Shown: one piece after another, positions 9,556-47,532 of the stretch
Layout of the letters: every line of letters starts with the position of its first letter
How positions within the stretch are numbered: position 1 is the first letter of the stretch
DNA from: Tubulanus polymorphus
Taxonomy: Eukaryota; Animalia; Nemertea
Length of the DNA: 64,000 bases
Direction of reading: 5' to 3'
NCBI RefSeq assembly: GCF_964204645.1
Contig: NC_134028.1
Coordinates: 8,184,001 to 8,248,000, forward strand
Notes under the pieces: generated by a model
Told to the model about the DNA's origin: nothing
The model's database searches: none
Seen by the model: only the letters and a program-made list of their open reading frames with translations
Made by a program: the position numbers and the translations under genes

Positions 9556-9637
<82 letters not shown>

Positions 9638-18600: not shown

Positions 18601-19206
18601 TATATCGGAAATATGGATCAGATATATCCATTCATTATAACCAATAGGCTGACGAAACTAACAAATCGAACTTTCTCATTTCGGTCGAAATGTATGATTT
18701 CTTACAGCCAATGAATTGTCTATTGAAAATAGTCCACGGGAACATTTTGAAATTTGTCAGTTATAACCATGGTTTCTCATTGTTACTATTTTTGGTGGTT
18801 GTTACCCCGATTTAGGAGTTGCCCCTAGGGATAACTTCGATACCAGTCTATAAATCCGGCACCTGGTGTTTTGTGGGGTTTTACTGTATAAGTGATTAAA
18901 GGATGGTGGATACATCATACATATTTTACCAGTTAACGTAACACCAAAGTTCACGTGAATTTAAAACCCACTATATACAGAATTTGAGAGATTATAAACG
19001 AATCTGACACCTGATGATGATCTCTAGTGAAAGTTCGAAATGTTGTGTATTTTGATCTTTTAAATTCAGTATATAGTGAGTTTTAAACTTATTATCTTTT
19101 CTCCGAGTGTTGCTATTCTACTGAAGTACAGGTTATTCGAATGTTTCTTTTCGTATATTTTCAGGCTATGGAACATTGTCAGACTCACGTTTGGACTCGA
19201 GATTAA
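7731..19206 (+). CDS. PSAP: Prosaposin (signal peptide, SapA, six SapB domains, SapA); ~688 aa with exon 6a or ~682 aa with exon 6b
   Basis: Exons 7731-7773, 8212-8357, 8721-8798, 9075-9140, 9881-10057, [6a 11544-11624 | 6b 11686-11748], 12772-12834, 13102-13161, 13944-14435, 15154-15438, 15528-15696, 16790-16944, 17674-17757, 18239-18364, 19165-19206; phases compatible. SapA motifs CTWGPSYWC and CTYGPAYWC; six CxxC...C...C...Y...PxxxCxxxxxC domains. Confidence 0.93.
9557..9636. repeat. (GGCT)20 microsatellite inside a MITE-A copy
   Basis: Directly visible; other MITE-A copies carry only a short ggct/ggcc run at this position. Confidence 0.95.
11215..11541 (+). promoter_or_regulatory. 327-nt AG-exclusion zone / extended polypyrimidine tract upstream of alternative exon 6a
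   Basis: No AG dinucleotide between 11214 and the acceptor at 11542-11543; C/T-rich, many YCAY and TCTT/TCTCT motifs. Confidence 0.7.
11544..11624 (+). CDS. PSAP: PSAP alternative exon 6a (VNVPLQCTICKAILTVAKDFVSNNATE)
   Basis: tttag acceptor, second in-frame acceptor ttacag giving a 63-nt exon from 11562, GAG/gtaaat donor; CxxC helix 1 with N-A-T sequon. Confidence 0.8.
11686..11748 (+). CDS. PSAP: PSAP alternative exon 6b (CEMCKIAIQKAKAMFDTKKSQ)
   Basis: ttttcag acceptor, CAG/gtagac donor, 63 nt, phase 0-0, CxxC helix 1 without sequon; intact in all units of the paralogue. Confidence 0.85.
13766..13880. mobile_element. Short MITE family C (GGxCCxGTTCCACAGTTGTGAGTT...AACTCACAACTGTG); related at ~15974, ~28343-28460 (each array unit), ~40745-40857
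   Basis: Recurrent cagttgtgagttaagatttgact and its inverse aactcagagttaactctaactc in several introns. Confidence 0.55.
16126..16423. mobile_element. Harbinger-type MITE (AGCCGGG...CCCGGCT) with TTA TSD, GTCGC/GCGAC-rich interior
   Basis: TTA at 16123-16125 and 16424-16426; homologous site in the paralogue (~40940-40955) is empty. Confidence 0.8.
17901..18171. mobile_element. piggyBac-type MITE
   Basis: TTAA|CCCTTTCAGTGC ... GCACTGAAAGGG|TTAA; absent from the paralogous intron. Confidence 0.85.
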
Positions 19207-24200: not shown

Positions 24201-27200
24201 TATTCATAAATATTTTTTTCTACACGCAATTTCTAGAAAAATGGGGAAATTTGTACATTATGCGAAGGCGTCATTGCGCAAGTCAAACAAATGTTGCTTG
24301 ATCCAAATGCTAATGTAAGTAATGTAATTAGGTATATGTAGCTCATACCGCCTACAGATTTATTCTTTCTTTTGAAAAAAACTTCTGGGGTATTGTTTGT
24401 ATTTGTTGGGAATAAAGAACCCTGGGGATGTAATTGTGCAGAAAAATGATACACGTATATTTCAATTTCCGGAAAAATAAGCCAAGACTGAATAAGGCCC
24501 CAGTTAGATATAGCCTGCCTGGGATGGCAGTGGCCTAAGGATTTTACCAAAAATCCATACAGTTTGAATATTGATGAATTCGTAATTATGTTTTTATTCA
24601 GGCTCAAGTGAAATCCTTCCTGGATAAAAGCTGTACTCTTTTGCCTGAAGTTGAGTCGCAAAGACAGGTTTGTATTAGGCTGAGTTTTACTGGACACGCA
24701 GATACGACCCATGATCGTAAAACTATCTGCTCTGTGGCCTGGATCGTGTGAAATGAAATGATTGCTAAAGAAATTTAGTGAAATTGCTTCAAATGAATAG
24801 GGAGTTAAAAGTAAATTTCAACGTAAGAAGCTTGTTTAGGAAAATGTCAATACGAGTTTTGGGAAGGTTGAAATGCTGTATTGAAAATAAAAACAGGATT
24901 CACATAATGTTCAAATAATTCTTTCCAGGGTTGAAAAATAAACTGAATAGGCTAGAATAAAATGATATCTTGTTTCTCCGAATCGACCGGGTTATTTTGT
25001 AAACTGCAATGAAATTTTTAACCAGTTCGTTTCTAAAACATCCGGGTCTGTTATGATTAGCTTGATCATGATTTTGAAAAAAGTAATGCACAGGGCCGGG
25101 TAGATAGGTGTTCTACTATTATTAGATATTAGAGGGAAGTTTCCAGTTATCAGGCGCCATTTTGAGGCGGACCCACAGATCCCGCATTGTTGGACAGATT
25201 TTAACATTTTTAAACTATAGCACCTTTAGCGCGATTCAATGTAGTCCATCCCACTTTTGCCTCAAAAATCAAAGTCATGCATCGTTAGAAAGGTGACAAT
25301 TTCTATTTTCTGATGTCAATGTAGAATTTTGACAGAAAATCGACAGTCGACCACTCGCGCGCGCTTTGCGCTTAACTTAACAGGTGACCACGCGCGTTTC
25401 TATGAAGATATTTTTACGTATATTTTTAAACTGTAATGGTATCCGATTGTTGCAGCCGATAAAAATGAAATAAACACCATCAGAAAATAGAGATTGTCAC
25501 CTTTCTAACAATGCATGACTTTAATTTTTTTGCCAAGAGGGGTATAGACTACAATTAATCGCGCTTAAGGTTTTAATGTAAAAAATGTTAAAATCTGTCC
25601 AACAATACGGGACCTGTGGGACCGCCTCAAAATGGCGCCTGGTAAGTGAAAACTTCCCTATCCTGGTAAAGAAATTTAGCTAAGTTATAGTAGTTTGGGG
25701 ATGGTTGAGATGTTAAGATTAAGATTGATTTGACTGTTTTGTCGATTGAATATTTTCAGTGTACGCAAATAGTGAACACGTACAACAATGAAGTGATTCA
25801 GATGATCAAAAGTAAATTGTTACCGTGTCAAATCTGCGCCGCCCTGAAATTGTGCCCGGTAGCAGCTGCTGATGGAAAAACGACACCGAACCGTGAGAGC
25901 AGTCTGAAGTTCACACCTCTGAAAGCGCCCAGTGCTCGGGTATGTCAATTATGAGAAATAGTGTTACTAAGGTTTCATTTATAAGAATTAGCAATCTTTG
26001 CGGACAAGGTTTCCCAGTAAGTCATTGATCCTTGGTAAAATAGTACTCGGGAAATCTCGGTTTTCGAAAACAGGTATGATGGGTTTCTAATGGCACCAAG
26101 AATTATTGATTACAAAAAAATATTTGTTTGAAAATTTTTTTGTTCATACTTTATTAAATAGATTTTATTTCGATGTAATTTTGTTTTCGAGCTAGGGTAC
26201 GATAGCTCTGAGATCTAGGATCTAAGATAGCTCTAAGATCTAGATCGAACCTAGGACTAACCACTTAAATTTAATAAACAGGTGCATTAGCATCATTGTA
26301 TAAAAAGGCTCATTCCCTCGTACTACGTACTTGCTGTTGATTCACGCGAGAAATTCTGAGAGTTTCAAATACAGAATTCGTAGAATATGTAGAATTATAG
26401 AGAGTACGGTATGTAATACGTTCAATCGAAACCTGCCTCAGTCGTATTATTTCGAATATATTTGTTTTCTAATGTGATGACTTTCATCTCTTATTCTGAC
26501 CACTCTTGTCGACCTAGTCATATTTTCTACCACTCTGATTTTTATCTTTCGCACATCAATCCACTCTCCAATGTCAATTTTTTTTTTCCAATAATTATTA
26601 TACCTCATCCAACTCTTCTCTCACTCACTTGACCAGCACTCAACCTCTCGTCTCTCCTTGTCCACTTATTTTGCAACCTCATATAATTACCTACCTTTAT
26701 CCTTTCATTCTCACCCTCTACATTTTCTACCGTTTTCCTCAATACCCCTTGTTTAGGTCAGCCGTCTGTAAAGCCATTCTGAACGTGGCTATAGATTTCG
26801 TCAGCGACAATGCGACCAAGGTAAACAATTCAAAAACTTCCTTCATGTTGTAAATATTAAATGTTTATTATATTTTCAGTGCGACCTGTGCAAAGTTGCA
26901 TTTCAAGTGGCTAAAGTTATGTTCGATGATAAGAAGTCTCAGGTAGACCCGATATCTATGTGCTTGGCATGACTTGTTTCAAAATCGGCTTAAATATTTA
27001 TCTTCTATCGCATTTCTATCGTCTTTTTAACATTTGGCTTTGTGTTTATTTTTAACTAACTTTACTGAACTTCTAATTTGAATTCCTGCATATATCAATA
27101 AATCTTGCACGTAAATCATCTTCTAGGATATTGGTTGTTTGTTTGTTTGTTTGTTTATTCATCATTCATTTAATTTGAAAACTCATTTATGGATTTTATT

Positions 27201-28686
27201 TTTCTTCACTTGCCACTGGTGGAATCCTCAATTGCTGCATTGCCACGTCTTCATTGCGAGATATGTTTTCTATGTCAATTACATATTTCAACAAAATTTA
27301 ACTGACTTTGAAAAAAGATTCTAATACAGCTTGAAAAACTTATTTGCTATATATCTAATACTGTGTTCATTTATTTGAAATAAGGCGGAAATCACTGCTT
27401 TCCTCAAAAAGGAATTGTGCGCAAAACTGGGACCTGAGCAACAAGCGGTAAGTTAAGTGTAGGAATATGATGATGTTTTGTACCCTAAAATTGTTTACGA
27501 TGAGGACTCTTCAGAAGAAAGCATTTTTGCCATTTTCAAACAAAGCCAGTACTTACCAATGCGTGTACATACATCTGCATAGGTCAAAGATCTGCAACTT
27601 ATAAAATAGATTGAAATCGATAACAACTATGGGCTGGAATTTACTCAGTACCGGCATAATCAATTTATTTTCATATTTTTCAGTGCAATTCATTGGTTGA
27701 TAAGAACGGCAATCTGATAATGCAACTTCTCGCCAACAATGTGGTGAGTATTTCGTAATGACTTTAATTCTTTCAGCATCAACTCTTATGGGCGACAATG
27801 GCCGCAGCGTTACCAATATCGGGGTGCACATTTTTCACATATTTCAAACTTAAATATTGGCTTTACCGTAAGGAGATATACTGATATGGCCTGGAATTGG
27901 TTAAGAACTCTTTTCTAAGTTTGATACCAATATTTGTATTGCATTGCTAACGTATGTTTATCCACAAATGATTCCACGAGTGTTTTGTTCAATCACCGAG
28001 CTAGTTTTGGACCGCAAAGTAGAAAATAATGCCATGAAAAATGGCAAGTTTCCAAATTCGATCGGCGTGTTTACGTTTGAGCGGTTCCGCATGATGTTTC
28101 GGAACGTCAATTCAACCAATATGAGTCAATTAAATCAAGAACATATACGATAATGTTTGGTTTTGAAAAAAATGCGAGAATGGCTTGGTAACAACAGATC
28201 ACTCATCTTATGATCATGCAAGATAGACATCGATAGAGTTGATGAAGACCGATCCTCAACGACTGATGGCCATATTGCAAAATACTTTTCTATCTATTTC
28301 AGCATCAGTTTTCAGCACTTTTCAGATAAACCTTTTAATGCATAGGATCCAGTTTCGCAGTTCCGAGTTAAGATTCGAATCAGGAGTTAACTCATCGATA
28401 ATGAACTTATTCTAACTCAGAGTTATAACTCTAACTCACAGCTGCTATGGACTTGGATCCAGGTTCAGGAATTTAAACTCGTAATATGATCTCATGGTTT
28501 TGCTAATTTGACAATTCGACGTTTATTTCAGGATCCGGAACAGATTTGCAAAGCGATCGGTTTTTGCCCCTTCGCGTCGCAGACGGTCATGTCGCAACGA
28601 TCTGCTCAGTGCGTCACCTGCGAATTCGTGACCAAAACCCTCATCGGCATGTTGACGAAAAATGCGTCTGAGGTAATGATAATTAT

Positions 28687-28731
<45 letters not shown>

Positions 28732-31700
28732 CTTCGGGGTTTGGATATTGGATATTGTATTTGATAGATTGAAATTATATGTGTATAGTTCGGATAAGAG
28801 CCCAGGCATTCATAATGAGAATGGCGTTGACTTTATTTATTACCTGAACAACCTACTTGGTTTTTACTCCCTTACGATCTGAGGTCCGTTTCTCACAAAG
28901 TCGTTAAGTTTGCCCCCGAGTTGCGCAGTGCTGACCACAAATGCCGTAGTTTTGGATCCTTGAGGAAGGTCATACATCTGATTTCTGCGTAGTCTGCGTA
29001 ACTGGACCGGGATTTTACCAAATTACGCGGTTACCGAATTAGAAATCGAGCTTAGGAGGTATATACGATAACAAGGTGCTTATAAAAACCACCAAGTTAA
29101 TGGTTTACTTAGATATACAGAGGCGATTTAGAGTCTAAAGTAATTAGGCCTATACGATACATTAGTGATTAGTCATACGGACGCTTCCCGGAAATTGAAA
29201 TTTTCTCCTTTAAAACTCCATATCCAGGAATGACTGATCTGCGGGGACCCTGCATATGAACTTGCTAACTAATCACAGTTAAGTCTAGATTTGATGTTTG
29301 TTTTTTCAGCAACAAATTGTACGCGCTTTGGGTAGCGTGTGTACGTTAATGCCGAAGACAGTGAGAGCTAAGTGTCAATCGTACGTCACCACGTACGCCC
29401 CCGCTCTGATTCAGCTGCTCGCATCGGACAACGACCCGCAACAGATTTGCACGTTCCTCGGAGTTTGCAGCCCGGCGGTGAAAAAACATCAACCGACTAG
29501 GCAACAAACACCCGTGGCTCAGCCGACATGCAACGTTTGCGAACAGGTCATGAAAGAACTCGAAAGCCTTCTACCGACAAATGCAACCGAGGTAAGATGA
29601 AATCTGACCTTTTTTTTAGAAACTTTCGAAATTCAATCGATTTGAATCGGATTTTCTATGGGACTCCATTGAAATCCGTCTTTCAATCTTCATTGAAATC
29701 CACCACGTTATCATATTTATGTGTGTATATACCACTCCAATGTATGTTTATCAACGAAAATTTGCATATAACAACATTCAGCTCTACCCCTTTCTTCAGT
29801 GGGCACTTGATTTTCCAAAAATCCATACAGTTTGAATATTGATGAATTCGTAATTATGTTTTTATTCAGGCTCAAGTGAAATCCTTCCTGGATAAAAGCT
29901 GTACTCTTTTGCCTGAAGTTGAGTCGCAAAGACAGGTTTGTATTAGGCTGAGTTTTACTGGACACGCAGATACGACCCATGATCGTAAAACTATCTGCTC
30001 TGTGGCCTGGATCGTGTGAAATGAAATGATTGCTAAAGAAATTTAGTGAAATTGCTTCAAATGAATAGGGAGTTAAAAGTAAATTTCAACGTAAGAAGCT
30101 TGTTGAGGAAAATGTCAATACGAGTTTTGGGAAAGTTGAAATGCTGTATTGAAAATAAAAACAGGATTCACATAATGTTCAAATAATTCTTTCCAGGGTT
30201 GAAAAATAAACTGAATAGGCTAGAATAAAATGATATCTTGTTTCTCCGAATCGACCGGGTTATTTTGTAAACTGCAATGAAATTTTTAACCAGTTCGTTT
30301 CTAAAACATCCGGGTCTGTTATGATTAGCTTGATCATGATTTTGAAAAAAGTAATGCACAGGGCCGGGTAGATAGGTGTTCTACTATTATTAGATATTAG
30401 AGGGAAGTTTCCAGTTATCAGGCGCCATTTTGAGGCGGACCCACAGATCCCGCATTGTTGGACAGATTTTAACATTTTTAAACTATAGCACCTTTAGCGC
30501 GATTCAATGTAGTCCATCCCACTTTTGCCTCAAAAATCAAAGTCATGCATCGTTAGAAAGGTGACAATTTCTATTTTCTGATGTCAATGTAGAATTTTGA
30601 CAGAAAATCGACAGTCGACCACTCGCGCGCGCTTTGCGCTTAACTTAACAGGTGACCACGCGCGTTTCTATGAAGATATTTTTACGTATATTTTTAAACT
30701 GTAATGGTATCCGATTGTTGCAGCCGATAAAAATGAAATAAACACCATCAGAAAATAGAGATTGTCACCTTTCTAACGATGCATGACTTTAATTTTTTTG
30801 CCAAGAGGGGTATAGACTACAATTAATCGCGCTTAAGGTTTTAATGTAAAAAATGTTAAAATCTGTCCAACAATACGGGACCTGTGGGACCGCCTCAAAA
30901 TGGCGCCTGGTAAGTGAAAACTTCCCTATCCTGGTAAAGAAATTTAGCTAAGTTATAGTAGTTTGGGGATGGTTGAGATGTTAAGATTAAGATTGATTTG
31001 ACTGTTTTGTCGATTGAATATTTTCAGTGTACGCAAATAGTGAACACGTACAACAATGAAGTGATTCAGATGATCAAAAGTAAATTGTTACCGCGTCAAA
31101 TCTGCACCGCCCTGAAATTGTGCCCGGTAGCAGCTGCTGATGGAAAAACGACACCGAACCGTGAGAGCAGTCTGAAGTTCACACCTCTGAAAGCGCCCAG
31201 TGCTCGGGTACGTCAATTATGAGAAATAGTGTTACTAAGGTTTCATTTATAAGAATTAGCAATCTTTGCGGACAAGGTTTCCCAGTAAATCATTGATCCT
31301 TGGTAAAATAGTACTCGGGAAATCTCGGTTTTCGAAAACAGGTATGATGGGTTTCTAAAGGCACCAAGAATTATTGATTACAAAAAAATATTTGTTTGAA
31401 AATTTTTTTGTTCATACTTTATTAAATAGATTTTATTTCGATGTAATTTTGTTTTCGAGCTAGGGTACGATAGCTCTGAGATCTAGGATCTAAGATAGCT
31501 CTAAGATCTAGATCGAACCTAGGACTAACCACTTAAATTTAATAAACAGGTGCATTAGCATCATTGTATAAAGGCTCATTCCCTCGTACTACGTACTTGC
31601 TGTTGATTCACGCGAGAAATTCTGAGAGTTTCTAATACAGAATTCGTAGAATATGTAGAATTATAGAGAGTACGGTATGTAATACGTTCAATCGAAACCT

Positions 31701-33950
31701 GCCTCAGTCGTATTATTTCGAATATATTTGTTTTCTAATGTGATGACTTTCATCTCTTATTCTGACCACTTGTCGACCTAGTCATATTTTCTACCACTCT
31801 GATTTTTATCTTTCGCACATCAATCCACTCTCCAATGTCAATTTTTTTTTTCCAATAATTATTATACCTCATCCAACTCTTCTCTCACTCACTTGACCAG
31901 CACTCAACCTCTCGTCTCTCCTTGTCCACTTATTTTGCAACCTCATATAATTACCTACCTTTATCCTTTCATTCTCACCCTCTACATTTTCTACCGTTTT
32001 CCTCAATACCCCTTGTTTAGGTCAGCCGTCTGTAAAGCCATTCTGAACGTGGCTATAGATTTCGTCAGCGACAATGCGACCAAGGTAAACAATTCAAAAA
32101 CTTCCTTCATGTTGTAAATATTAAATGTTTATTATATTTTCAGTGCGACCTGTGCAAAGTTGCATTTCAAGTGGCTAAAGTTATGTTCGATGATAAGAAG
32201 TCTCAGGTAGACCCGATATCTATGTGCTTGGCATGACTTGTTTCAAAATCGGCTTAAATATTTATCTTCTATCGCATTTCTATCGTCTTTTTAACATTTG
32301 GCTTTGTGTTTATTTTTTACTAACTTTACTGAACTTCTAATTTGAATTCCTGCATATATCAATAAATCTTGCACGTAAATCATCTTCTAGGATATTGGTT
32401 GTTTGTTTGTTTGTTTGTTTATTCATCATTCATTTAATTTGAAAACTCATTTATGGATTTTATTTTTCTTCACTTGCCACTGGTGGAATCCTCAATTGCT
32501 GCATTGCCACGTCTTCATTGCGAGATATGTTTTCTATGTCAATTACATATTTCAACAAAATTTAACTGACTTTGAAAAAAGATTCTAATACAGCTTGAAA
32601 AACTTATTTGCTATATATCTAATACTGTGTTCATTTATTTGAAATAAGGCGGAAATCACTGCTTTCCTCAAAAAGGAATTGTGCGCAAAACTGGGACCTG
32701 AGCAACAAGCGGTAAGTTAAGTGTAGGAATATGATGATGTTTTGTACCCTAAAATTGTTTACGATGAGGACTCTTCAGAAGAAAGCATTTTTGCCATTTT
32801 CAAACAAAGCCAGTACTTACCAATGCGTGTACATACATCTGCATAGGTCAAAGATCTGCAACTTATAAAATAGATTGAAATCGATAACAACTATGGGCTG
32901 GAATTTACTCAGTACCGGCATAATCAATTTATTTTCATATTTTTCAGTGCAATTCATTGGTTGATAAGAACGGCAATCTGATAATGCAACTTCTCGCCAA
33001 CAATGTGGTGAGTATTTCGTAATGACTTTAATTCTTTCAGCGTCAACTCTTATGGGCGACAATGGCCGCAGCGTTACCAATATCGGGGTGCACATTTTTC
33101 ACATATTTCAAACTTAAATATTGGCTTTACCGTAAGGAGATATACTGATATGGCCTGGAATTGGTTAAGAACTCTTTTCTAAGTTTGATACCAATATTTG
33201 TATTGCATTGCTAACGTATGTTTATCCACAAATGATTCCACGAGTGTTTTGTTCAATCACCGAGCTAGTTTTGGACCGCAAAGTAGAAAATAATGCCATG
33301 AAAAATGGCAAGTTTCCAAATTCGATCGGCGTGTTTACGTTTGAGCGGTTCCGCATGATGTTTCGGAACGTCAATTCAACCAATATGAGTCAATTAAATC
33401 AAGAACATATACGATAATGTTTGGTTTTGAAAAAAATGCGAGAATGGCTTGGTAACAACAGATCACTCATCTTATGATCATGCAAGATAGACATCGATAG
33501 AGTTGATGAAGACCGATCCTCAACGACTGATGGCCATATTGCAAAATACTTTTCTATCTATTTCAGCATCAGTTTTCAGCACTTTTCAGATAAACCTTTT
33601 AATGCATAGGATCCAGTTTCGCAGTTCCGAGTTAAGATTCGAATCAGGAGTTAACTCATCGATAATGAACTTATTCTAACTCAGAGTTATAACTCTAACT
33701 CACAGCTGCTATGGACTTGGATCCAGGTTCAGGAATTTAAACTCGTAATATGATCTCATGGTTTTGCTAATTTGACAATTCGACGTTTATTTCAGGATCC
33801 GGAACAGATTTGCAAAGCGATCGGTTTTTGCCCCTTCGCGTCGCAGACGGTCATGTCGCAACGATCTGCTCAGTGCGTCACCTGCGAATTCGTGACCAAA
33901 ACCCTCATCGGCATGTTGACGAAAAATGCGTCTGAGGTAATGATAATTAT

Positions 33951-33983
<33 letters not shown>

Positions 33984-36900
33984 CTTCGGGGTTTGGATAT
34001 TGGATATTGTATTTGATAGATTGAAATTATATGTGTATAGTTCGGATAAGAGCCCAGGCATTCATAATGAGAATGGCGTTGACTTTATTTATTACCTGAA
34101 CAACCTACTTGGTTTTTACTCCCTTACGATCTGAGGTCCGTTTCTCACAAAGTCGTTAAGTTTGCCCCCGAGTTGCGCAGTGCTGACCACAAATGCCGTA
34201 GTTTTGGATCCTTGAGGAAGGTCATACATCTGATTTCTGCGTAGTCTGCGTAACTGGACCGGGATTTTACCAAATTACGCGGTTACCGAATTAGAAATCG
34301 AGCTTAGGAGGTATATACGATAACAAGGTGCTTATAAAAACCACCAAGTTAATGGTTTACTTAGATATACAGAGGCGATTTAGAGTCTAAAGTAATTAGG
34401 CCTATACGATACATTAGTGATTAGTCATACGGACGCTTCCCGGAAATTGAAATTTTCTCCTTTAAAACTCCATATCCAGGAATGACTGATCTGCGGGGAC
34501 CCTGCATATGAACTTGCTAACTAATCACAGTTAAGTCTAGATTTGATGTTTGTTTTTTCAGCAACAAATTGTACGCGCTTTAGGTAGCGTGTGTACGTTA
34601 ATGCCGAAGACAGTGAGAGCTGAGTGTCAATCGTACGTCACCACGTACGCCCCCGCTCTGATTCAGCTGCTCGCATCGGACAACGACCCGCAACAGATTT
34701 GCACGTTCCTCGGAGTTTGCAGCCCGGCGGTGAAAAAACATCAACCGACTAGGCAACAAACACCCGTGGCTCAGCCGACATGCAACGTTTGCGAACAGGT
34801 CATGAAAGAACTCGAAAGCCTTCTACCGACAAATGCAACCGAGGTAAGATGAAATCTGACCTTTTTTTTAGAAACTTTCGAAATTCAATCGATTTGAATC
34901 GGATTTTCTATGGGACTCCATTGAAATCCGTCTTTCAATCTTCATTGAAATCCACCACGTTATCATATTTATGTGTGTATATACCACTCCAATGTATGTT
35001 TATCAACGAAAATTTGCATATAACAACATTCAGCTCTACCCCTTTCTTCAGTAGGCACTTGATTTTCCAAAAATCCATACAGTTTGAATATTGATGAATT
35101 CGTAATTATGTTTTTATTCAGGCTCAAGTGAAATCCTTCCTGGATAAAAGCTGTACTCTTTTGCCTGAAGTTGAGTCGCAAAGACAGGTTTGTATTAGGC
35201 TGAGTTTTACTGGACACGCAGATACGACCCATGATCGTAAAACTATCTGCTCTGTGGCCTGGATCGTGTGAAATGAAATGATTGCTAAAGAAATTTAGTG
35301 AAATTGCTTCAAATGAATAGGGAGTTAAAAGTAAATTTCAACGTAAGAAGCTTGTTGAGGAAAATGTCAATACGAGTTTTGGGAAGGTTGAAATGCTGTA
35401 TTGAAAATAAAAACAGGATTCACATAATGTTCAAATAATTCTTTCCAGGGTTGAAAAATAAACTGAATAGGCTAGAATAAAATGATATCTTGTTTCTCCG
35501 AATCGACCGGGTTATTTTGTAAACTGCAATGAAATTTTTAACCAGTTCGTTTCTAAAACATCCGGGTCTGTTATGATTAGCTTGATCATGATTTTGAAAA
35601 AAGTAATGCACAGGGCCGGGTAGATAGGTGTTCTACTATTATTAGATATTAGAGGGAAGTTTCCAGTTATCAGGCGCCATTTTGAGGCGGACCCACAGAT
35701 CCCGCATTGTTGGACAGATTTTAACATTTTTAAACTATAGCACCTTTAGCGCGATTCAATGTAGTCCATCCCACTTTTGCCTCAAAAATCAAAGTCATGC
35801 ATCGTTAGAAAGGTGACAATTTCTATTTTCTGATGTCAATGTAGAATTTTGACAGAAAATCGACAGTCGACCACTCGCGCGCGCTTTGCGCTTAACTTAA
35901 CAGGTGACCACGCGCGTTTCTATGAAGATATTTTTACGTATATTTTTAAACTGTAATGGTATCCGATTGTTGCAGCCGATAAAAATGAAATAAACACCAT
36001 CAGAAAATAGAGATTGTCACCTTTCTAACGATGCATGACTTTAATTTTTTTGCCAAGAGGGGTATAGACTACAATTAATCGCGCTTAAGGTTTTAATGTA
36101 AAAAATGTTAAAATCTGTCCAACAATACGGGACCTGTGGGACCGCCTCAAAATGGCGCCTGGTAAGTGAAAACTTCCCTATCCTGGTAAAGAAATTTAGC
36201 TAAGTTATAGTAGTTTGGGGATGGTTGAGATGTTAAGATTAAGATTGATTTGACTGTTTTGTCGATTGAATATTTTCAGTGTACGCAAATAGTGAACACG
36301 TACAACAATGAAGTGATTCAGATGATCAAAAGTAAATTGTTACCGCGTCAAATCTGCGCCGCCCTGAAATTGTGCCCGGTAGCAGCTGCTGATGGAAAAA
36401 CGACACCGAACCGTGAGAGCAGTCTGAAGTTCACACCTCTGAAAGCGCCCAGTGCTCGGGTATGTCAATTATGAGAAATAGTGTTACTAAGGTTTCATTT
36501 ATAAGAATTAGCAATCTTTGCGGACAAGGTTTCCCAGTAAATCATTGATCCTTGGTAAAATAGTACTCGGGAAATCTCGGTTTTCGAAAACAGGTATGAT
36601 GGGTTTCTAAAGGCACCAAGAATTATTGATTACAAAAAAATATTTGTTTGAAAATTTTTTTGTTCATACTTTATTAAATAGATTTTATTTCGATGTAATT
36701 TTGTTTTCGAGCTAGGGTACGATAGCTCTGAGATCTAGGATCTAAGATAGCTCTAAGATCTAGATCGAACCTAGGACTAACCACTTAAATTTAATAAACA
36801 GGTGCATTAGCATCATTGTATAAAGGCTCATTCCCTCGTACTACGTACTTGCTGTTGATTCACGCGAGAAATTCTGAGAGTTTCTAATACGGAATTCGTA

Positions 36901-39200
36901 GAATATGTAGAATTATAGAGAGTACGGTATGTAATACGTTCAATCGAAACCTGCCTCAGTCGTATTATTTCGAATATATTTGTTTTCTAATGTGATGACT
37001 TTCATCTCTTATTCTGACCACTTGTCGACCTAGTCATATTTTCTACCACTCTGATTTTTATCTTTCGCACATCAATCCACTCTCCAATGTCAATTTTTTT
37101 TTCCAATAATTATTATACCTCATCCAACTCTTCTCTCACTCACTTGACCAGCACTCAACCTCTCGTCTCTCCTTGTCCACTTAATTTGCAACCTCATATA
37201 ATTACCTACCTTTATCCTTTCATTCTCACCCTCTACATTTTCTACCGTTTTCCTCAATACCCCTTGTTTAGGTCAGCCGTCTGTAAAGCCATTCTGAACG
37301 TGGCTATAGATTTCGTCAGCGACAATGCGACCAAGGTAAACAATTCAAAAACTTCCTTCATGTTGTAAATATTAAATGTTTATTATATTTTCAGTGCGAC
37401 CTGTGCAAATTTGCATTTCAAGTGGCTAAAGTTATGTTCGATAATAAGAAGTCTCAGGTAGACCCGATATCTATGTGCTTGGCATGACTTGTTTCAAAAT
37501 CGGCTTAAATATTTATCTTTTATCGCATTTCTATCGTCTTTTTAACATTTGGCTTTGTGTTTATTTTTTACTAACTTTACTGAACTTCTAATTTGAATTC
37601 CTGCATATATCAATAAATCTTGCACGTAAATCATCGTCTAGGATATTGGTTGTTTGTTTGTTTGTTTGTTTATTCATCATTCATTTAATTTGAAAACTCA
37701 TTTATGGATTTTATTTTTCTTCACTTGCCACTGGTGGAATCCTCAATTGCTGCATTGCCACGTCTTCATTGCGAGATATGTTTTCTATGTCAATTACATA
37801 TTTCAACAAAATTTAACTGACTTTGAAAAAAGATTCTAATACAGCTTGAAAAACTTGTTTGCTATATATCTAATACTGTGTTCATTTATTTGAAATAAGG
37901 CGGAAATCACTGCTTTCCTAAAAAAGGAATTGTGCGCAAAACTGGGACCTGAGCAACAAGCGGTAAGTTAAGTGTAGGAATATGATGATGTTTTGTACCC
38001 TAAAATTGTTTACGATGAGGACTCTTCAGAAGAAAGCATTTTTGCCATTTTCAAACAAAGCCAGTACTTACCAATGCGTGTACATACATCTGCATAGGTC
38101 AAAGATCTGCAACTTATAAAATAGATTGAAATCGATAACAACTATGGGCTGGAATTTACTCAGTACCGGCATAATCAATTTATTTTCATATTTTTCAGTG
38201 CAATTCATTGGTTGATAAGAACGGCAATCTGATAATGCAACTTCTCGCCAATAATGTGGTGAGTATTTCGTAATGACTTTAATTCTTTCAGCATCAACTC
38301 TTATGGGCGACAATGGCCGCAGCGTTACCAATATCGGGGTGCACATTTTTCACATATTTCAAACTTAAATATTGGCTTTACCGTAAGGAGATATACTGAT
38401 ATGGCCTGGAATTGGTTAAGAACTCTTTTCTAAGTTTGATACCAATATTTGTATTGCATTGCTAACGTATGTTTATCCACAAATGATTCCACGAGTGTTT
38501 TGTTCAATCACCGAGCTAGTTTTGGACCGCAAAGTAGAAAATAATGCCATGAAAAATGGCAAGTTTCCAAATTCGATCGGCGTGTTTACGTTTGAGCGGT
38601 TCCGCATGATGTTTCGGAACGTCAATTCAACCAATATGAGTCAATTAAATCAAGAACATATACGATAATGTTTGGTTTTGAAAAAAATGCGAGAATGGCT
38701 TGGTAACAACAGATCACTCATCTTATGATCATGCAAGATAGACATCGATAGAGTTGATGAAGACCGATCCTCAACGACTGATGGCCATATTGCAAAATCT
38801 ATCTATTTCAGCATCAGTTTTCAGCACTTTTCAGATAAACCTTTTAATGCATAGGATCCAGTTTCGCAGTTCCGAGTTAAGATTCGAATCAGGAGTTAAC
38901 TCATCGATAATGAACTTATTCTAACTCAGAGTTATAACTCTAACTCACAGCTGCTATGGACTTGGATCCAGGTTCAGGAATTTAAACTCGTAATATGATC
39001 TCATGGTTTTGCTAATTTGACAATTCGACGTTTATTTCAGGATCCGGAACAGATTTGCAAAGCGATCGGTTTTTGCCCCTTCGCGACGAAACCGTCGCAG
39101 ACGGTCATGTCGCAACGATCTGCTCAGTGCGTCACCTGCGAATTCGTGACCAAAACCCTCATCGGCATGTTGACGAAAAATGCGTCTGAGGTAATGATAA

Positions 39201-39257
<57 letters not shown>

Positions 39258-42200
39258 CTTCGGGGTTTGGATATTGGATATTGTATTTGATAGATTGAAA
39301 TTATATGTGTATAGTTCGGATAAGAGCCCAGGCATTCATAATGAGAATGGCGTTGACTTTATTTATTACCTGAACAACCTACTTGGTTTTTACTCCCTTA
39401 CGATCTGAGGTCCGTTTCTCACAAAGTCGTTAAGTTTGCCCCCGAGTTGCGCAGTGCTGACCACAAATGCCGTAGTTTTGGATCCTTGAGGAAGGTCATA
39501 CATCTGATTTCTGCGTAGTCTGCGTAACTGGACCGGGATTTTACCAAATTACGCGGTTACCGAATTAGAAATCGAGCTTAGGAGGTATATACGATAACAA
39601 GGTGCTTATAAAAACCACCAAGTTAATGGTTTACTTAGATATACAGAGGCGATTTAGAGTCTATAGTAATTAGGCCTATACGATACATTAGTGATTAGTC
39701 ATACAGACGCTTCCCGGAAATTGAAATTTTCTCCTTTAAAACTCCATATCCAGGAATGACTGATCTGCGGGGACCCTGCATATGAACATGCTAACTAATC
39801 ACAGTTAAGTCTAGATTTGATGTTTGTTTTTTCAGCAACAAATTGTACGCGCTTTAGGTAGCGTGTGTACGTTAATGCCGAAGACAGTGAGAGCTGAGTG
39901 TCAATCGTACGTCACCACGTACGCCCCCGCTCTGATTCAGCTGCTCGCATCGGACAACGAGCCGCAACAGATTTGCACGTTCCTCGGAGTTTGCAGCCCG
40001 GCGGTGAAAAAACATCAACCGACTAGGCAACAAACACCCGTGGCTCAGCCGACATGCAACGTTTGCGAACAGGTCATGAAAGAACTCGAAAGCCTTCTAC
40101 CGACAAATGCAACCGAGGTAAGATGAAATCTGACCTATTTTTTAGAAACTTTCGAAATTCAATCGATTTGAATCGGATTTTCTATGGGACTCCATTGAAA
40201 TCCGTCTTTCAATCTTCATTGAAATCCACCACGTTATCATATTTATGTGTGTATATACCACTCCAATGTATGTTTATCAACGAAAATTTGCATATAACAA
40301 CATTCAGCTCTACCCCTTTCTTCAGTGGGCACTTGATTTTGGCGTCGGCTGAAAATTTCCATCATTAAAACCTCTGACGAATCTTCCATCATGTTCGTTA
40401 AATATCTGGTCAACTGGTCAACTATGTTAGGCGGTTGGGACAAAGAAGCTTTAATTCTGATCATATATATGATTGTATATCTGATTATATATTCATTTTC
40501 AGACAGATATCGTTGCAGCGTTTAACAGAGTTTGCGCTCTGCAACCAATGACTATTAGCGCTGAATGTACAGATTTTGTAAATCAGTACGGGACGTTAGT
40601 TATCCAACTATTGGTCGATGGTTTTGCTCCGGTAGTTGTTTGCAAAGAACTAGGCCTCTGCCCTACTGTTCGTAAGTATTCGATAGAAATTCCATGTTCA
40701 GTTATCATTGTGGAGTATAGAGTTTTGGTGAATTCCTAAACTCGCGGACCGGGTTCTACAGTTGTGAGTTTAAGATTTGACTAGAGAGTTACTTCGTTGT
40801 AAATCTACTAATTTTAACTCTGAGTAAACCCGAACTCACAACTGTGAAACTGACCTTCCAGTACGACTGTCACGACATTAGTCCACAAAATCAAATCTCA
40901 ACATTGGTTTAAGGTTATAAAATTTGCTATCGAACTAAGTTTGTTGTAGACTGGTCTTAAACGTAAGCCATGGCTGCACAGATGGCCACTCAGGTCGGCA
41001 CTTATATCCCTGGCTAGATTATTATCATCATTGGGAACCGAGGTTACTGTTGATTACTGATTAAAATGAACATTTCAACGAAATGTTGCCGAAAAGTTTC
41101 AATTTGTTACTAATAGCACTTTTAGAGGTTGGCAGCCGTTACCATTTATAGCCGCTATTGCTTTGATATGAAGCGATGACAGGCAAAATTTCAATATTTC
41201 AAGCGATAGATATTTATCGATGTTTTTATACCGTATGCGTGTACCGGTAATTGTTTCGTTACAGAGACCAAAGTCCGAGCGAGTGGTGAGGTTTGTCGGT
41301 TGTGCAAAATGGTTATGTCGTATTTGGCTATGCTCTTGAGGGAACAGTCGACCGCGCAAACAATCGACCACGCAGTCGAACGAGTTTGCAACTTCTTACC
41401 AGCTGCGATGAAAAAACCTGTACGTATATTGAATTCTATTTGTGAGATCAATACAACCAACATCGATCACTGGAAATACTTTGACCTAATGTTGTAGCAG
41501 TACCAAACTATATAGTCGGTTTAAATTCAAGATTAGTTAATTTTCGATCAACTTTAAACTGGATTTTTACAGGCTCTTGAATCCATATTTCCAAAATAGT
41601 ACTGGTAATCAGATGAATACACAATTGATTTTTGTACTCGGCGTTTGGTATAGTTTTCATTGGTAATTGGAAGTAGATTTTAATTGGTTACCGTTCGAAG
41701 AAATTGAAGCGTAGTAACAGAGTAACTACTACTAGCGAACCTAGCTGGAAATCTAGCTGAAGTGCTCCAGTCAGGCATTCTGAAGTGTTGGGCATATTCA
41801 CCACACAAGTAGGCCTACATATTTGTTAGACAAATAGCTGCAAAGTTGGAAACAAATAGCAAAGAGTCTCTACAACTCCTTGTTTCATATTCGGTTCAGG
41901 ATCCCTACGACTCATTGATCCCTTTAAAGCTCCTTCTCAATGAAAAGCGGTGTTTGAAACTACATTAATGCCAGAAGCTCCTTCAATTTTGAAAGATAGG
42001 AAATCAGAAGTTGTGGCACAGTAAAAAGACTACGCCTAAATCGATGCAGTCAGGATTTTTTACCAATTCGGTGGTTACCAAATTTGAAAGGATCAGAATT
42101 TGCCACCGAATTTACCGTTTTGCCGAGGTAGACAGTACAGATTTATGAGGAGTCTACTGTATTTGAGATATGAAAGTCATGCAGAAGCTTCATCAAAATT

Positions 42201-43125
42201 TGAAATTTTCTCCTTTAACAATTTCTTGAAAACTCCTTGTATCCAGGAATGGCTGATTTGTTGGGTCACCCTGTAGTCACCTTACTTATCCCCAAGATGA
42301 TCAAAGCTATCGACCATCACCTCTGATATTAATAGGGAAGGGTGACTGACTGTGGCGCAGTAACTTAGCAATCAATAACTGTCCCTGAATTCTTCACTGC
42401 ACTTGTTGAGAGGAAAACCTACGGAATTGTTTATTCCATGTAATATTTTTCAGTGTGATGATATGATAGAACAATACGGACCGTTTATCATTCAAAAGTT
42501 GGACCAGCAGCTCGTAAACCCTGCCGATGTTTGTGCCGTAAGTGTTCAAATGCAATTACCGGTAGGCCTATTATATTCTTAAATACAACAGTAAGAATGA
42601 TATATTCTAATATTGAGCCTTTCACCTTAACAATAATTTTCCCATAGGAATTCTATATTCAAGTCTTGTTTTTGACAAACCATAATTTTAGAAAACACGG
42701 AAAACACCGGGAAATGATTTCTCTCGGGGAAAACGCATGGAAAACAGAGAAATGGAATTTATTTTGCTTGTGCGGGTTCCTCCCCAATTGTGTTTAATGG
42801 ACTGCATGCCCGTTATCAGAACATTTACAACAACTTTACTACCTTCGCTTCATTTGGTGAATTTTTGAATTCCTATAAAATTTAAATTACCAGGTAACTG
42901 AAATATTTACTAGGCTAGTTTACTACTTACATCTGTCAAGATATGAATTCTCCGGTCTGTACTACTGCCGTTCATCGGAACACAGGAAAAGTCCTTAATT
43001 TCGTTTATCGGGAAAACACAGGGAATTCATAAGCGGATGGATTTTGACCCTGAAGCATTGTTTTACTTTTTTATCGTCAATATCAATTTCTTTTCGTATA
43101 TTTTCAGGCTATGGAACATTGTTAG
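21209..43125 (+). CDS. Prosaposin-like paralogue, ~1088 aa: signal peptide, SapA, 11 SapB domains, no C-terminal SapA
   Basis: Exons 21209-21251, 23753-23898, 24237-24314; unit 1: 24602-24667, 25760-25939, 26880-26942, 27385-27447, 27684-27743, 28532-28672, 29310-29591; unit 2: 29870-29935, 31028-31207, 32144-32206, 32649-32711, 32948-33007, 33796-33936, 34562-34843; unit 3: 35122-35187, 36280-36459, 37395-37457, 37900-37962, 38199-38258, 39041-39190, 39836-40117; then 40503-40671, 41265-41419, 42454-42537, 43108-43125 (TAG). Frame open if the 6a copies are skipped; expression not demonstrable. Confidence 0.75.
21871..23725. mobile_element. Older, right-truncated copy of the foldback element, host of the nested copy
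   Basis: Starts TATGGTGGCTGATAAGGGCC at 21871, is interrupted at 21939, resumes at 23280 with the sequence expected from the intact copy; right TIR ends prematurely near 23725. Confidence 0.75.
21940..23273. mobile_element. Non-autonomous foldback element, IS3EU-like termini (TATGG...CCATA) with 6-bp TSD CAAAAC
   Basis: Long inverted arms made of ~31-bp subrepeats TTTTGGCGCCCCCGCCAAAAC around a ~110-bp spacer; CAAAAC at 21934-21939 and 23274-23279. Confidence 0.8.
25133..25659. mobile_element. 527-bp MITE with long (~190 bp) imperfect TIRs; copies 30401-30927 and 35653-36179
   Basis: AGGGAAGTTT..CAGGCGCCATTTTGAGGCGG ... CCGCCTCAAAATGGCGCCTG..AAACTTCCCT; absent from intron 4 of copy 1. Confidence 0.8.
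26757..26820 (+). pseudogene. Frameshifted pseudo-exon 6a of the paralogue (also 32021-32084, 37272-37335)
   Basis: 17-nt deletion relative to 11544-11624 removes the first Cys and leaves 64 nt (59 nt from the next AG), neither divisible by 3. Confidence 0.8.
28688..28731. repeat. (GATT)n microsatellite, about 11, 8 and 13 copies in units 1-3 (28688, 33952, 39206)
   Basis: Directly visible. Confidence 0.9.
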
Positions 43126-44995
43126 ACCCACGTTTGGACTCGAGATTAAAATTATTGAGCACGCGTTTTTTTTCAAACGGTACGGGGCGGATCTTGGTGA
43201 CCTAGATTCCTGTCTTAAGTTTTATAGGTAAAATAAACCGAAATCTCGTCATTTTCATTCCCTAAATTTGATTAGCTCTTTTTCGTTAAGATCCCTTCCT
43301 AGATCCGCCCGTGCTGCCCTCTCCCGGTCAACAATGAATTTGTAATTGATCTCGCGTTGTAATTCTGTTCAACAGTACTTCGTGATGTCTACTAACACTT
43401 TCACCCGCCATACAAGTTGGAATATTGAGGAGCAAATCTGAAATATTATCTAGTGCTTCGTTTTAAGATTAGCGGTAGCTCTGTCTGTAATTGTATAGGC
43501 CTATGTGTTTTTATTTCCGATTCAAATTATTAATCAAAACATATTAGATATACATCATATTCCGTATTCATATTAGTTTTAGCTTAAGTTGAGCATAATT
43601 TTTATTTGTCGCCTATGATGATAATCCAAAGCATTGAAATTGAATGATAATAATGATGATAATTGTAATTTTTTTCTATTAGCTAGAAACAAGCTATGTT
43701 GCCAGTGAATCTTCTATATCGAAAATTGGGGGTTGAAATTAAATGCGGTTCTATTTTTTGAAAATTAAATTGGTGAGTGTGAATCTGCTGTCCCAGACTG
43801 GGTCCCTAAGACATTGGACACCTCATGGCCTAGCATACAATTTTTGATCGTCCAGTTCACTACTTCAGGCATTTTAAACTAGCTAATATGCCCAAAAACG
43901 TTTTGTCAGCACACTTTCATGAGGCGATCGTCCATACTTTACACTCCAATCGATAGAGTTAACAATTGTTAGAATTTATTAACTCGTATTAATCCTAAGG
44001 TTCATTTCACTGATTAACTTAACGTTAAAGATTCATTTGTAATCTGGTATGACTAATGTAACTTTCAAAGTCATTCTGTGAAATGCGGTCCTTTTTTCTA
44101 AGCTTTGATATATATTATGTTATCGCTCATTGTACGATACTAATGTATTTTGATTATGATGCTTGTTATTTGTATATCGGTTGTAGGTACAGTCGAACCT
44201 CGTTATTACGATTCTGTTTAAGACAAAACCTGTTCATTGCGATGATTTCCAGCATGTTCTGGCTAAGATATTTTACATCATTCCTGATTAAGAAAATACG
44301 AAGCCCGTTTGATGTTACAATTTCGTCATTTTTGTCCACAAGATCCGTATTAACGAGGTTCCACTGTATTTTCTGGTAAAATCGTACATTCTAAATCTTG
44401 AATCATCGCTGGTGCTGACTACGTCCAAGGGTGAGAATTGATTTCACCGCGTGATACAAGGAATTATTTTGGGAATACAGTTGGATACTGTGATAAAATC
44501 TGTGATAAAAAGATATTTGAAACTGTAAGGGAACATGCATATTGTCCTAATTATCCATCACTAAAATCATTTATAATGAAACGATCTTTTATGAACAATT
44601 ATCATGTCTTCGTGGTTGACTTTGACATCCTTGGACGGTTCACAAGAGTCTTTCTATTGACGATTTCATATTTGTCTTTTATCATACCACAGCGTATATA
44701 GAATGCAGGCTTAAAGTGACACCCTGATGCCGAGATCCCTCCCAGAGGCCTACCCCCGTACTTGAATGCTCGATTCACTAGAGGTTTGTCGTTATGTGAA
44801 GCATTTTAACCCGGTTTGTGCGAACATCATAGTCATATTAAAATCTTCAATACCCTGCTTCTCAAATTGACGGAATATTTTTACGTTGGAAGAATGAAGA
44901 ATTAAACTTGTAAGAAAAATAACTATGGCTAAATCCGGATTTAAGGAATACGAAAAGTTAAGTTACCCCATGGGTTAAAGTTAACACCAGTCTAT

Positions 44996-46452: not shown

Positions 46453-47532
46453 CTTTCTATACCGCAAAATGATGATTACTCATGGGCCAATAAAATTAGC
46501 TTACACTAATACTGCACAATTTGTCAAATACAAAAAGCAGTTTGAAATCATTGTGCTAAAAGGTTAAGCTTATTTCATCTTATATATACGCATGCAGATG
46601 AAACTTGCCCCGAGACTTTATTTGATTGGCTGAAAATATGAATAACCCGGAATGCATGGTTTTATCGAATACGAACAACTACGGCGTAACTATGAGGGGA
46701 TTTCGAAGAAATGAAGTGAGATTAGGTATGATGTTTTCGAGATACCCAGAGGAGTTGACCTATGGTTCAACTAACGGTGGGCGAACTTCGGTTATCGGAG
46801 TAAGTCGACTATGTTCGAACTAAGTGAAACCGAATGTCAGTTATTCTGAACTGTAGTCCGGAAATGGTCGATACAGGATTGAGCACGGTGGCCGACACTG
46901 TCAAATGAGTTTCGGCCGAACTCAAGTGCGTCCCGTAATATATTAGTTCCGACCACCAGTAATCGAGCTACGAACCGAAGTTCACCTAGACGGTTGCAAG
47001 GTGTAAGGGCTCAAGTAGGGTATTGCATAGTATAGTTCCTTCGCGTATGCTTACTGCGTTGTTCGGTTTATGTGTAACCCAAAGAAAGTTGTCATGTCGA
47101 CACATTTACATCGCCAGCCATTAACATTCCATGTGTCAACGTGTCGACGTATCTACCAACCGACAAATTGACTATTAATGATCTCTTAACCTCATACACC
47201 AAACACATCACGTGACCAAACACATGATAAACCCCATACTTAAAATACAAATTGCATTTTATATTAGTTTCAACACGGTTAAACATTCAAATTCACCGGA
47301 GATTCATTATTTATTTTCATCACTGTCATCGTGAGATGCGCCTCCCAAAAAACAAACGTGGGGACGGTGAAATATGGCATTGTTCACATTGCTACAGAAC
47401 GACGTCGATGCGTGCCGCCTCTCTTTTTCAAAATCAAAAATGATGCAGCTGATGCTTATAGTTTACTGTTTCGGTTTAGATTTTCTTCTCTTGTTTGTTT
47501 GTGTTTTGTGGTCACCCGTCAACCAGTCAACC

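What the first reader, a model, noticed from the sequence alone, without database searches (positions are those of the whole stretch)
42454..43125. Loss of the C-terminal SapA exon is rescued: a borrowed Cys and new stop complete the last saposin
Seen: no homologue of exon 14 (EIRLC...CTYGPAYWC) exists between 42538 and 43107, and the last exon has CAG>TAG. Splicing 13 to 15 gives ...NPADVCA-AMEHC*, the same C-x5-C spacing as VCAEIRLC in copy 1, so a former SapA cysteine becomes Cys6 of the last SapB and the protein ends there. Known: the C-terminal region of mammalian prosaposin mediates sortilin-dependent lysosomal targeting. Inference: not a pseudogenising stop but a redesigned protein that keeps its signal peptide and may be secreted, e.g. 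a poly-saposin antimicrobial or cytolytic precursor.
Basis: partly seen in the sequence, partly recalled or inferred. Interest (0 to 1): 0.82.

Follow-up and report, generated by a model that had tools for sequence, protein, structure and literature searches.

The report
Prosaposin duplicate with a borrowed cysteine
A ribbon worm has a second, transcribed copy of a lipid-handling gene that lost one exon near its end yet keeps the six-cysteine pattern of its last domain by taking a cysteine from the next domain; the protein likely still goes to lysosomes rather than being a secreted weapon.

Summary
The window carries two tandem prosaposin-like genes of the nemertean Tubulanus polymorphus. Copy 2 lacks exon 14 and has CAG>TAG in exon 15. 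Spliced contigs from two studies join 42537 to 43108 and read the TAG. RefSeq already models this 1088-aa protein. Copy 2 is not a pseudogene: all 33 homologous Cys are kept, used exons have no stop or frameshift, and its one frameshift lies in an alternative exon that the transcripts skip.

'Redesign' overstates it. Introns 13 and 14 of the parent gene both fall one residue after the first Cys of a C-x5-C motif, so losing exon 14 restores the spacing automatically. The borrowed residues are unchanged and include His where 0 of 1,844 other domains have it. The stop only trims 8 Cys-free residues.

Secretion or defence is unsupported. Fly Sap-r has the same architecture and is endolysosomal, the N-terminal SapA and six glycan sequons remain, and no domain is cationic. 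It is not excluded: copy 2 evolves fast and lacks the parental upstream region. Verdict: a neat new variant of a known kind.

The parts
42454..42537 (+). Copy 2 exon 13: second half of the last SapB domain, Cys4 to Cys5 plus one residue; phase-0 donor
   Evidence: joined to 43108 in X3 and X5 contigs
42538..43107 (+). Fused intron 13/14 of copy 2. Homology to copy 1 ends near 42741 and resumes near 43087; about 345 bp without detectable homology stand where copy 1 has 1260 bp including exon 14
   Evidence: X1 contig 42518-43116 with 0 differences
43108..43125 (+). Coding part of copy 2 exon 15: five residues of the former C-terminal SapA ending in the borrowed Cys (43120-43122), then the new TAG (43123-43125)
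   Evidence: codons identical to copy 1
43126..43149 (+). Former coding tail, now 3' UTR; old TAA at 43147-43149
21209..21251 (+). Copy 2 exon 1, signal-peptide-like (judged by eye and by likeness to copy 1; no predictor run)
23753..23898 (+). Copy 2 exon 2: intact N-terminal SapA (58.6 bits against 60.6 in copy 1, one Y/F difference in residues 24-54)
24237..24314 (+). Copy 2 exon 3: first half of SapB 1
24540..40335 (+). Three tandem 5.26-kb units (24540-29808, 29809-35060, 35061-about 40335) of exons 4-10, 14-24 mismatches between units, in frame and in domain register; the protein has 11 SapB domains
   Evidence: exon 10 to exon 4 joint in X3 and depth step at 24566 in X1
26757..26820 (+). 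Dead alternative exon 6a of unit 1: 17-nt deletion, frameshift and stop (also 32021-32084 and 37272-37335)
   Evidence: skipped in X3 and X5 contigs
26880..26942 (+). Alternative exon 6b of unit 1, intact and used (also 32144-32206 and 37395-37457)
39041..39190 (+). Copy 2 exon 9 (unit 3), shortened in frame by 342 nt, which removes one whole SapB domain
40503..41419 (+). Copy 2 exons 11 (40503-40671) and 12 (41265-41419); exon 12 carries Cys1-Cys3 of the last SapB
7731..19206 (+). Copy 1, the parent gene: SapA, 6 SapB, SapA; RefSeq isoforms X1 (exon 6a, 688 aa) and X2 (exon 6b, 682 aa)
18239..18364 (+). Copy 1 exon 14 (126 nt, phase 0-0): native Cys6, linker and first three Cys of the C-terminal SapA; absent from copy 2

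Best explanation
Copy 2 is a transcribed tandem duplicate of prosaposin that lost exon 14 and splices exon 13 to exon 15, which places a former SapA cysteine in the sixth-cysteine position of its last saposin domain; it is likely translated and likely still delivered mainly to endolysosomes as a lipid-handling saposin precursor. Shown: the exon loss, the splice, the TAG, the 11 six-Cys domains and the skipping of the broken exon 6a. Shown from copy 1: both flanking introns are phase 0 and lie one residue after the first Cys of a C-x5-C motif, so the deletion swaps one motif end for the other with no further change. Predicted: the last domain folds as a saposin, with the terminal Cys placed to pair with Cys1. 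Inferred: selection acted as a filter that let through only rearrangements leaving whole cysteine sets (exon-14 loss, exon-9 deletion, exon 4-10 triplication); the stop is a tolerated trim of the SapA remnant; non-Cys positions are under relaxed constraint; the retained N-terminal SapA and N-glycans would serve lysosomal sorting, with some secretion as for any prosaposin.
For: Splice and stop in contigs of two studies. Pairwise dN/dS 0.52 (bootstrap 0.36-0.76), dS 0.19, introns 0.16; 33 of 33 Cys kept. If copy 2 had been neutral since duplication: P(no stop) 0.007, P(all Cys kept) 0.0012, about 15 frameshifting indels expected at the intron rate and none seen in used exons. Only 2 of 13 single-exon deletions, 12 of 91 block deletions, 12 of 91 block duplications and 614 of 5,000 random exon-9 deletions leave frame and whole Cys sets; the three real events all do. 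AlphaFold2 last domain pLDDT 85.2 against 84.9 for copy 1; best match saposin D, Z 13.2, rmsd 2.0, 77 aligned, through the last residue. The architecture is common: 55 of 170 relatives lack the C-terminal SapA and 8 of 241 end exactly at Cys6. D. simulans Sap-r has only an N-terminal SapA; D. melanogaster Sap-r is endolysosomal and is said to carry the SORT-1-binding sequence in its N-terminal SapA (PMC5483003). Mammalian prosaposin also uses M6PR and LRP1 (PMC4576858).
Against: Localisation is inferred from other animals; nemertean sorting receptors were not examined. The borrowed segment scores at the 0.4th percentile and has His at a position that is His in 0 of 1,844 other domains, so the last domain may be less stable than the model suggests. 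The alignment forced the terminal Cys into the Cys6 column, so the prediction leans towards pairing, and no S-S distance was available. A ratio of 0.52 also fits a constrained copy 1 plus a nearly neutral copy 2: one neutral lineage would give about 83 residue changes, and 88 are seen for both. Most changes fall on copy 2 (38 against 17; 55 against 21, where a few columns may be misaligned; only 14 against 8 with Lineus as outgroup). A prosaposin-like protein occurs in another nemertean's mucus proteome. The clean-rearrangement classes were chosen after seeing the events.
Confidence: 0.6

Rival explanations
1. Copy 2 is a neofunctionalised, secreted poly-saposin (mucus, gut or immune defence). 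Losing the C-terminal SapA would free it from receptor sorting, and the 11 domains would be released as membrane-active peptides.
For: Fast protein evolution on copy 2 (exon 11 pN 0.23 against pS 0.21). Very recent domain triplication. Homology to the parent starts only about 35 nt before the ATG, so the upstream region differs. ProSP-B has SapA plus three SapB, no C-terminal SapA, and a host-defence module (PMC4933373). A six-saposin precursor tops an octocoral nematocyst proteome (PMC11896702). A 716-aa prosaposin-like protein with 5 unique peptides is in the Amphiporus secretion table (PMC7460313 Table S2). Domains are nearer neutral than the family median of -5. NK-lysin is a near tie in fold (Z 12.3, rmsd 1.6, 76 aligned).
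Against: Sap-r with the same architecture is endolysosomal. The N-terminal SapA and six sequons are kept. Net charges are -6 to +2 with no consistent shift from copy 1 (+2 to +1, -3 to +1, -1 to 0, -3 to -6, -2 to -2). Identity is higher to saposin D (35%) than to NK-lysin (20%) or caenopore-5 (19%). The Amphiporus protein has the length of an ordinary nemertean prosaposin, so mucus presence may not need this rearrangement (its domain layout was not seen). No exon has pN clearly above pS on adequate counts.
Confidence: 0.22
2. Copy 2 is a redundant duplicate in decay. It is still transcribed, constraint has recently lapsed, and the in-register exon loss is a tolerated accident giving a marginal last domain.
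For: Loss of one alternative exon, one domain, exon 14 and the parental upstream region. Atypical substitutions such as Y>N at the conserved saposin Tyr in two domains and L>H in the last. Lower profile scores than copy 1 in all five domain pairs. An extra Cys in unit 1.
Against: No stop or frameshift in used exons, all Cys kept and splice dinucleotides intact, each unlikely under neutrality throughout. The same spliced form occurs in two studies. Domain scores (70.7-80.7 bits) stay at or above the family's lower quartile of 70.3.
Confidence: 0.15
3. Copy 2, or its missing exon 14, is an assembly artefact.
For: The three internal units are more than 99% identical, so their number could be wrong; no whole genome was available.
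Against: Copy 2 differs from copy 1 at dS 0.19. The exon-less intron is contiguous in X1 and the 13-15 joint occurs in two studies. The unit junction is spliced in X3 and X1 depth steps up at the unit boundary.
Confidence: 0.03

Closest known systems
Prosaposin (PSAP); copy 1 and Lineus longissimus prosaposin-like proteins
   Same: Signal-like N-terminus, N-terminal SapA, tandem six-Cys SapB domains; 72% identity to copy 1 over matched stretches; last domain predicted saposin-D-like.
   Different: No C-terminal SapA; 11 domains instead of 6 (copy 1, Lineus) or 4 (human); Cys6 and the four residues before it come from SapA; alternative exon 6a is dead.
Drosophila Saposin-related (Sap-r)
   Same: N-terminal SapA only, many SapB domains (8), short tail; endolysosomal in D. 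melanogaster (PMC5483003).
   Different: Sap-r is the single fly orthologue, has a native Cys6 and a 15-residue tail; copy 2 is a young paralogue beside an intact parent.
Pulmonary surfactant protein B precursor (proSP-B)
   Same: Prosaposin homologue with one N-terminal SapA and no C-terminal SapA; one released module acts in host defence (PMC4933373).
   Different: Three SapB modules, vertebrate lung-specific; no evidence here for a comparable route or activity.
Multi-saposin precursor in Eunicella nematocysts; duplicated PSAP-like genes of Acropora
   Same: Invertebrate prosaposin-like genes recruited to secretions, or tandemly duplicated and fast-evolving (PMC11896702; PMC7850063).
   Different: Those have proteomic or expression support for a special role; copy 2 has none, and the passages read describe no cross-domain Cys swap.

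Membership tests
Prosaposin-like precursor (broad, includes Sap-r) | N-terminal SapA domain | tested here: met
   Pfam PF02199 at 23-55, 52.7 bits, cut-off 22
Prosaposin-like precursor (broad, includes Sap-r) | Tandem SapB domains, each with six Cys | tested here: met
   11 domains by pattern; SapB_1 and SapB_2 each 11 stretches
Prosaposin-like precursor (broad, includes Sap-r) | Cleavable signal peptide in the expressed protein | tested here: inconclusive
Prosaposin-like precursor (broad, includes Sap-r) | Endolysosomal delivery and processing to single saposins | not testable with these tools
   Needs localisation and proteomics
Vertebrate-type prosaposin (two SapA) | C-terminal SapA domain | tested here: not met
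   One SapA only; not filed under this type
SapB domain (last domain, residues 1014-1088) | Six Cys at canonical spacing, C5-x5-C6 | tested here: met
   splice shown
SapB domain (last domain, residues 1014-1088) | Saposin helical fold | tested here: met
   Predicted only: pLDDT 85.2; saposin D Z 13.2, rmsd 2.0, 77 aligned; alignment-driven
SapB domain (last domain, residues 1014-1088) | Family-typical (mostly hydrophobic) residue just before Cys6; a strong tendency, not an absolute rule | tested here: not met
   His here; L, F, M, V or I in 1,706 of 1,844 and His in 0. The whole domain still scores 70.7 bits
SapB domain (last domain, residues 1014-1088) | Cys1-Cys6 disulfide formed | not testable with these tools
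The pairing pattern is recalled, not from a call
Cationic cytolytic SAPLIPs (NK-lysin, granulysin) | Strongly basic domain | tested here: not met
   Net charge -6 to +2, pI 4.1-8.3; 'basic' as in PMC11896702
Pore-forming SAPLIPs (amoebapore, caenopore) | Membrane permeabilisation or killing | not testable with these tools
   Caenopore-5 Z 6.2, rmsd 2.6, 74 aligned; a fold shows no function
Pseudogene | Disabling change in exons used by the transcript | tested here: not met
   Only frameshift is in exon 6a, which is skipped; the new stop is in the last exon, 8 codons before the old one

The most novel reading that the evidence does not exclude
A young nemertean prosaposin duplicate under a new upstream region escaped lysosomal sorting by deleting exon 14, sealed its last saposin with a SapA cysteine (a route seen in none of 1,844 other domains), triplicated its core and became a secreted 11-domain precursor of membrane-active mucus or venom peptides: a proSP-B-like recruitment caught early, with the intact parent next door as a control.
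Probability: 0.2. Interest if true: 0.7.

Novelty: new variant of a known kind. Interest (0 to 1): 0.4.

Why it matters
It is a clean, transcript-supported case of a disulfide scaffold completed across two different domain types by one exon loss, explained by intron position. It shows one route by which SapA-(SapB)n proteins without a C-terminal SapA can arise; that architecture recurs in flies, in SP-B and in about a third of the relatives surveyed. The two neighbouring paralogues form a natural pair for asking whether the C-terminal SapA is needed for lysosomal sorting outside mammals. It is not a new system, and the secreted-defence reading has no direct support yet.

Tried and rejected
No whole genome was held, so other paralogues and sorting receptors in this species were not examined. 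No RNA holder was listed as such; X3 and X5 were judged spliced from their joints. X3 and X5 contigs did not cover copy-2 exons 2-3, and the exon 3-4 joint was not seen; contigs drop rare variants and the near-identical parent may mask them, so this is not used either way. Contig depths (copy-2 type 195-279, copy-1 type 3,426-6,464 in X3) were not used to rank expression. X5 showed no exon 10-4 joint; not taken as a copy-number difference. A search for shorter relatives of the copy-2 tail found one distant protein, 35% identical, so conservation of the stop in relatives is untested. The idea that the exon-6a frameshift kills the gene was rejected. The idea that the stop position is improbable was rejected: 4 of the 6 single-base nonsense options in exon 15 lie after the Cys and 1 of 6 is this one. 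No breakpoint relic was found in 42742-43087 (best 22, shuffle 95th percentile 27). Yuan and Morales 2010 is not held; only its title was seen, so the sortilin-binding residues were not mapped. Searches 'saposin + nemertea' (2 papers listed, neither on this gene by title and abstract start), 'Tubulanus polymorphus + genome' (12 of 13 listed) and 'prosaposin + mutually exclusive exons' (7 listed) showed no description of this locus; subscription papers and unseen supplements could hold one. Earlier scan notes: none. The bioRxiv M6P survey and PMC5319729 passages added nothing on nemerteans.

Full report
Locus. A self-comparison shows two tandem, co-oriented copies of one gene: about 7700-21070 and 21175-44870, the second with three 5.26-kb internal units. 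Exon 9 of copy 1 matches at 100% a protein named prosaposin-like X2 of Tubulanus polymorphus, a nemertean. Copy 1 has 15 exons and encodes SapA, six SapB domains and SapA; its RefSeq isoforms X1 and X2 differ by mutually exclusive exons 6a and 6b. The protein is thus already an automatic prediction. My paper searches showed no description of it.

The observation. Exon 13 (42454-42537), exon 15 (from 43108) and CAG>TAG (43123-43125) are as described. Exon 14 has no homologue in the intron or downstream. Homology to copy 1 stops near 42741 and resumes near 43087; about 345 bp without detectable homology replace 1260 bp. Five public runs hold the stretch; I laid four in each of two calls, all five at least once. 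Contigs of X3 (study P1) and X5 (study P2) join 42537 to 43108 at GT..AG and continue through the TAG with no differing letter. A copy-1-type contig in X3 instead continues from exon 13 into exon 14. The exon-less intron is contiguous in the DNA-like run X1, which may be the assembly's source.

Is copy 2 alive? Exon 6a carries a 17-nt deletion with a stop in all three units, which the finding does not mention. The transcripts skip it and use intact exon 6b. Over 499 codons dS is 0.19, dN 0.10, ratio 0.52 (0.36-0.76); introns differ by 0.16; 33 of 33 Cys are kept (the ambiguous middle of exon 9 was left out). In 20,000 neutral simulations of one lineage, 0.7% had no stop and 0.12% kept all Cys; about 15 frameshifting indels would be expected at the intron rate, against none in used exons. 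The reading frame and Cys scaffold have therefore been under purifying selection for at least much of the copy's history; a recent lapse cannot be excluded. Other positions are weakly constrained: a neutral lineage would give about 83 residue changes and 88 are seen in total. Most changes fall on copy 2 (38 against 17, p 0.006; 55 against 21), though the Lineus-polarised count for the N-terminal part is only 14 against 8.

Why the Cys lands in register. In copy 1, intron 13 lies one residue after Cys5 of the last SapB, and intron 14 lies one residue after the third Cys of the C-terminal SapA. Both are phase 0 and both Cys begin a C-x5-C motif. Removing exon 14 swaps one motif end for the other. 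Only 2 of 13 single-exon deletions leave frame and whole Cys sets, and this is one; the exon 4-10 duplication is one of 12 clean ones of 91; random exon-9 deletions of similar size are clean in 614 of 5,000. All three real rearrangements are clean, which fits selection acting as a filter on a modular gene (inference; classes chosen after the fact). There is no sign of later tuning: the five borrowed codons are identical to copy 1, the segment scores at the 0.4th percentile of 816 domains, and His before Cys6 occurs in 0 of 1,844 domains from 241 other proteins (the window's own proteins and ten isoform or cluster duplicates were left out). None of those domains has a SapA-type tail, so this route to Cys6 is unique in that sample. 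The stop is not needed for pairing, as the 8 residues it removes hold no Cys; it is 1 of 6 single-base nonsense options in the exon, 4 of which spare the Cys. Ending exactly at Cys6 does recur, in 8 of 241 relatives whose completeness I could not check.

Structure. AlphaFold2 with 41-sequence alignments gives the last domain pLDDT 85.2 (residues 81-86: 89) against 84.9 (88) for copy 1. The best solved match is human saposin D (Z 13.2, rmsd 2.0, 77 aligned, 35% identity, through the final residue), then NK-lysin (Z 12.3, rmsd 1.6, 76 aligned, 20%), a tie by Z. The alignment put the terminal Cys in the invariant Cys6 column, so this shows feasibility, not a bond.

Targeting. Reviews state that the PSAP C-terminus binds sortilin (PMC12345702, passages; PMC12864279, passages), and M6PR and LRP1 also carry PSAP (PMC4576858, passages). 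The primary paper on the 17-residue stretch was seen as a title only. Loss of the C-terminal SapA is common: 30 of the 120 other proteins then held and 55 of 170 in the wider set; many are related dipterans and some may be partial. D. simulans Sap-r, Argonauta, Brachionus, Candidula (partial) and Euwallacea proteins each show one N-terminal SapA. [quoted passage not shown] Copy 2 keeps its N-terminal SapA almost unchanged and has six N-glycan sequons. Lysosomal delivery is therefore the likelier default. For secretion: proSP-B has the same layout and a defence module (PMC4933373, passages); an octocoral nematocyst proteome is topped by a six-saposin precursor (PMC11896702, passages); a 716-aa prosaposin-like protein is in the Amphiporus secretion table with 5 unique peptides (PMC7460313, passages and one supplement row); Acropora has fast-evolving tandem PSAP-like genes (PMC7850063, passages); and copy 2 shares only about 35 nt of upstream sequence with its parent. 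But its domains are not cationic and show no consistent charge shift.

Verdict. Observation confirmed with transcript support; interpretation partly supported. Expressed paralogue, Cys register inherited and filtered, likely endolysosomal: 0.60. Secreted defence protein: 0.22. Duplicate in decay: 0.15. Artefact: 0.03. New variant of a known kind; interest 0.4.

Noticed in passing
window 11544-11624 and 11686-11748; P0122-P0127, P0018: Mutually exclusive exons 6a and 6b encode the first half of SapB 2; 6a carries an N-glycan sequon and 6b does not. Lineus longissimus isoforms show an equivalent pair with the same sequon difference, plus two further alternative segments. Search one search listed nothing on this.
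   Followed up: partly
window 24540-40335: Very recent in-register triplication of exons 4-10; exon 10 to exon 4 joint in X3 (28 letters on the short side, borderline); X1 depth 34-49 before 24566 and about 82-122 in non-repetitive bins after it. The unit number per individual is unresolved.
   Followed up: partly
window 21074-21175: The duplicate begins about 35 nt before its ATG, about 100 bp after the parent's 3' homologous region; the parent's upstream region, with a CCGGAAG motif at 7614, was not copied.
   Followed up: partly
window 21870-23725: Inverted satellite array (30-, 114- and 144-145-bp periods) inside copy-2 intron 1.
   Followed up: no
window 25760-25939: Unit 1 exon 5 has an extra Cys (residue 134) where units 2 and 3 have Arg and copy 1 has His, giving an odd Cys count of 71; X1 and X3 contigs show the Arg letter there.
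   Followed up: partly
window 25133-25659 (also 30401-30927, 35653-36179): About 526-bp insertion with 183-bp inverted ends and very high depth in X1, likely a MITE-type repeat.
   Followed up: no
window 45355-46479 (-), 50743-51795 (+): Long single ORFs: a 7TM receptor (Pfam Srw) and a three-finger C2H2 protein that looks Sp/buttonhead-like (C2H2; family name recalled).
   Followed up: no
window 54388-62994 (-) and 62-6242 (+): Two tandem transporter-like genes that look SLC22-like, and exons resembling a condensin II subunit G2; both names are recalled, and the pieces scanned had no Pfam hit.
   Followed up: no
P0018 residues 413-486; copy 1 SapB 6: The fourth Lineus domain resembles, by eye, the sixth Tubulanus domain, hinting at domain reordering between nemertean classes.
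   Followed up: no
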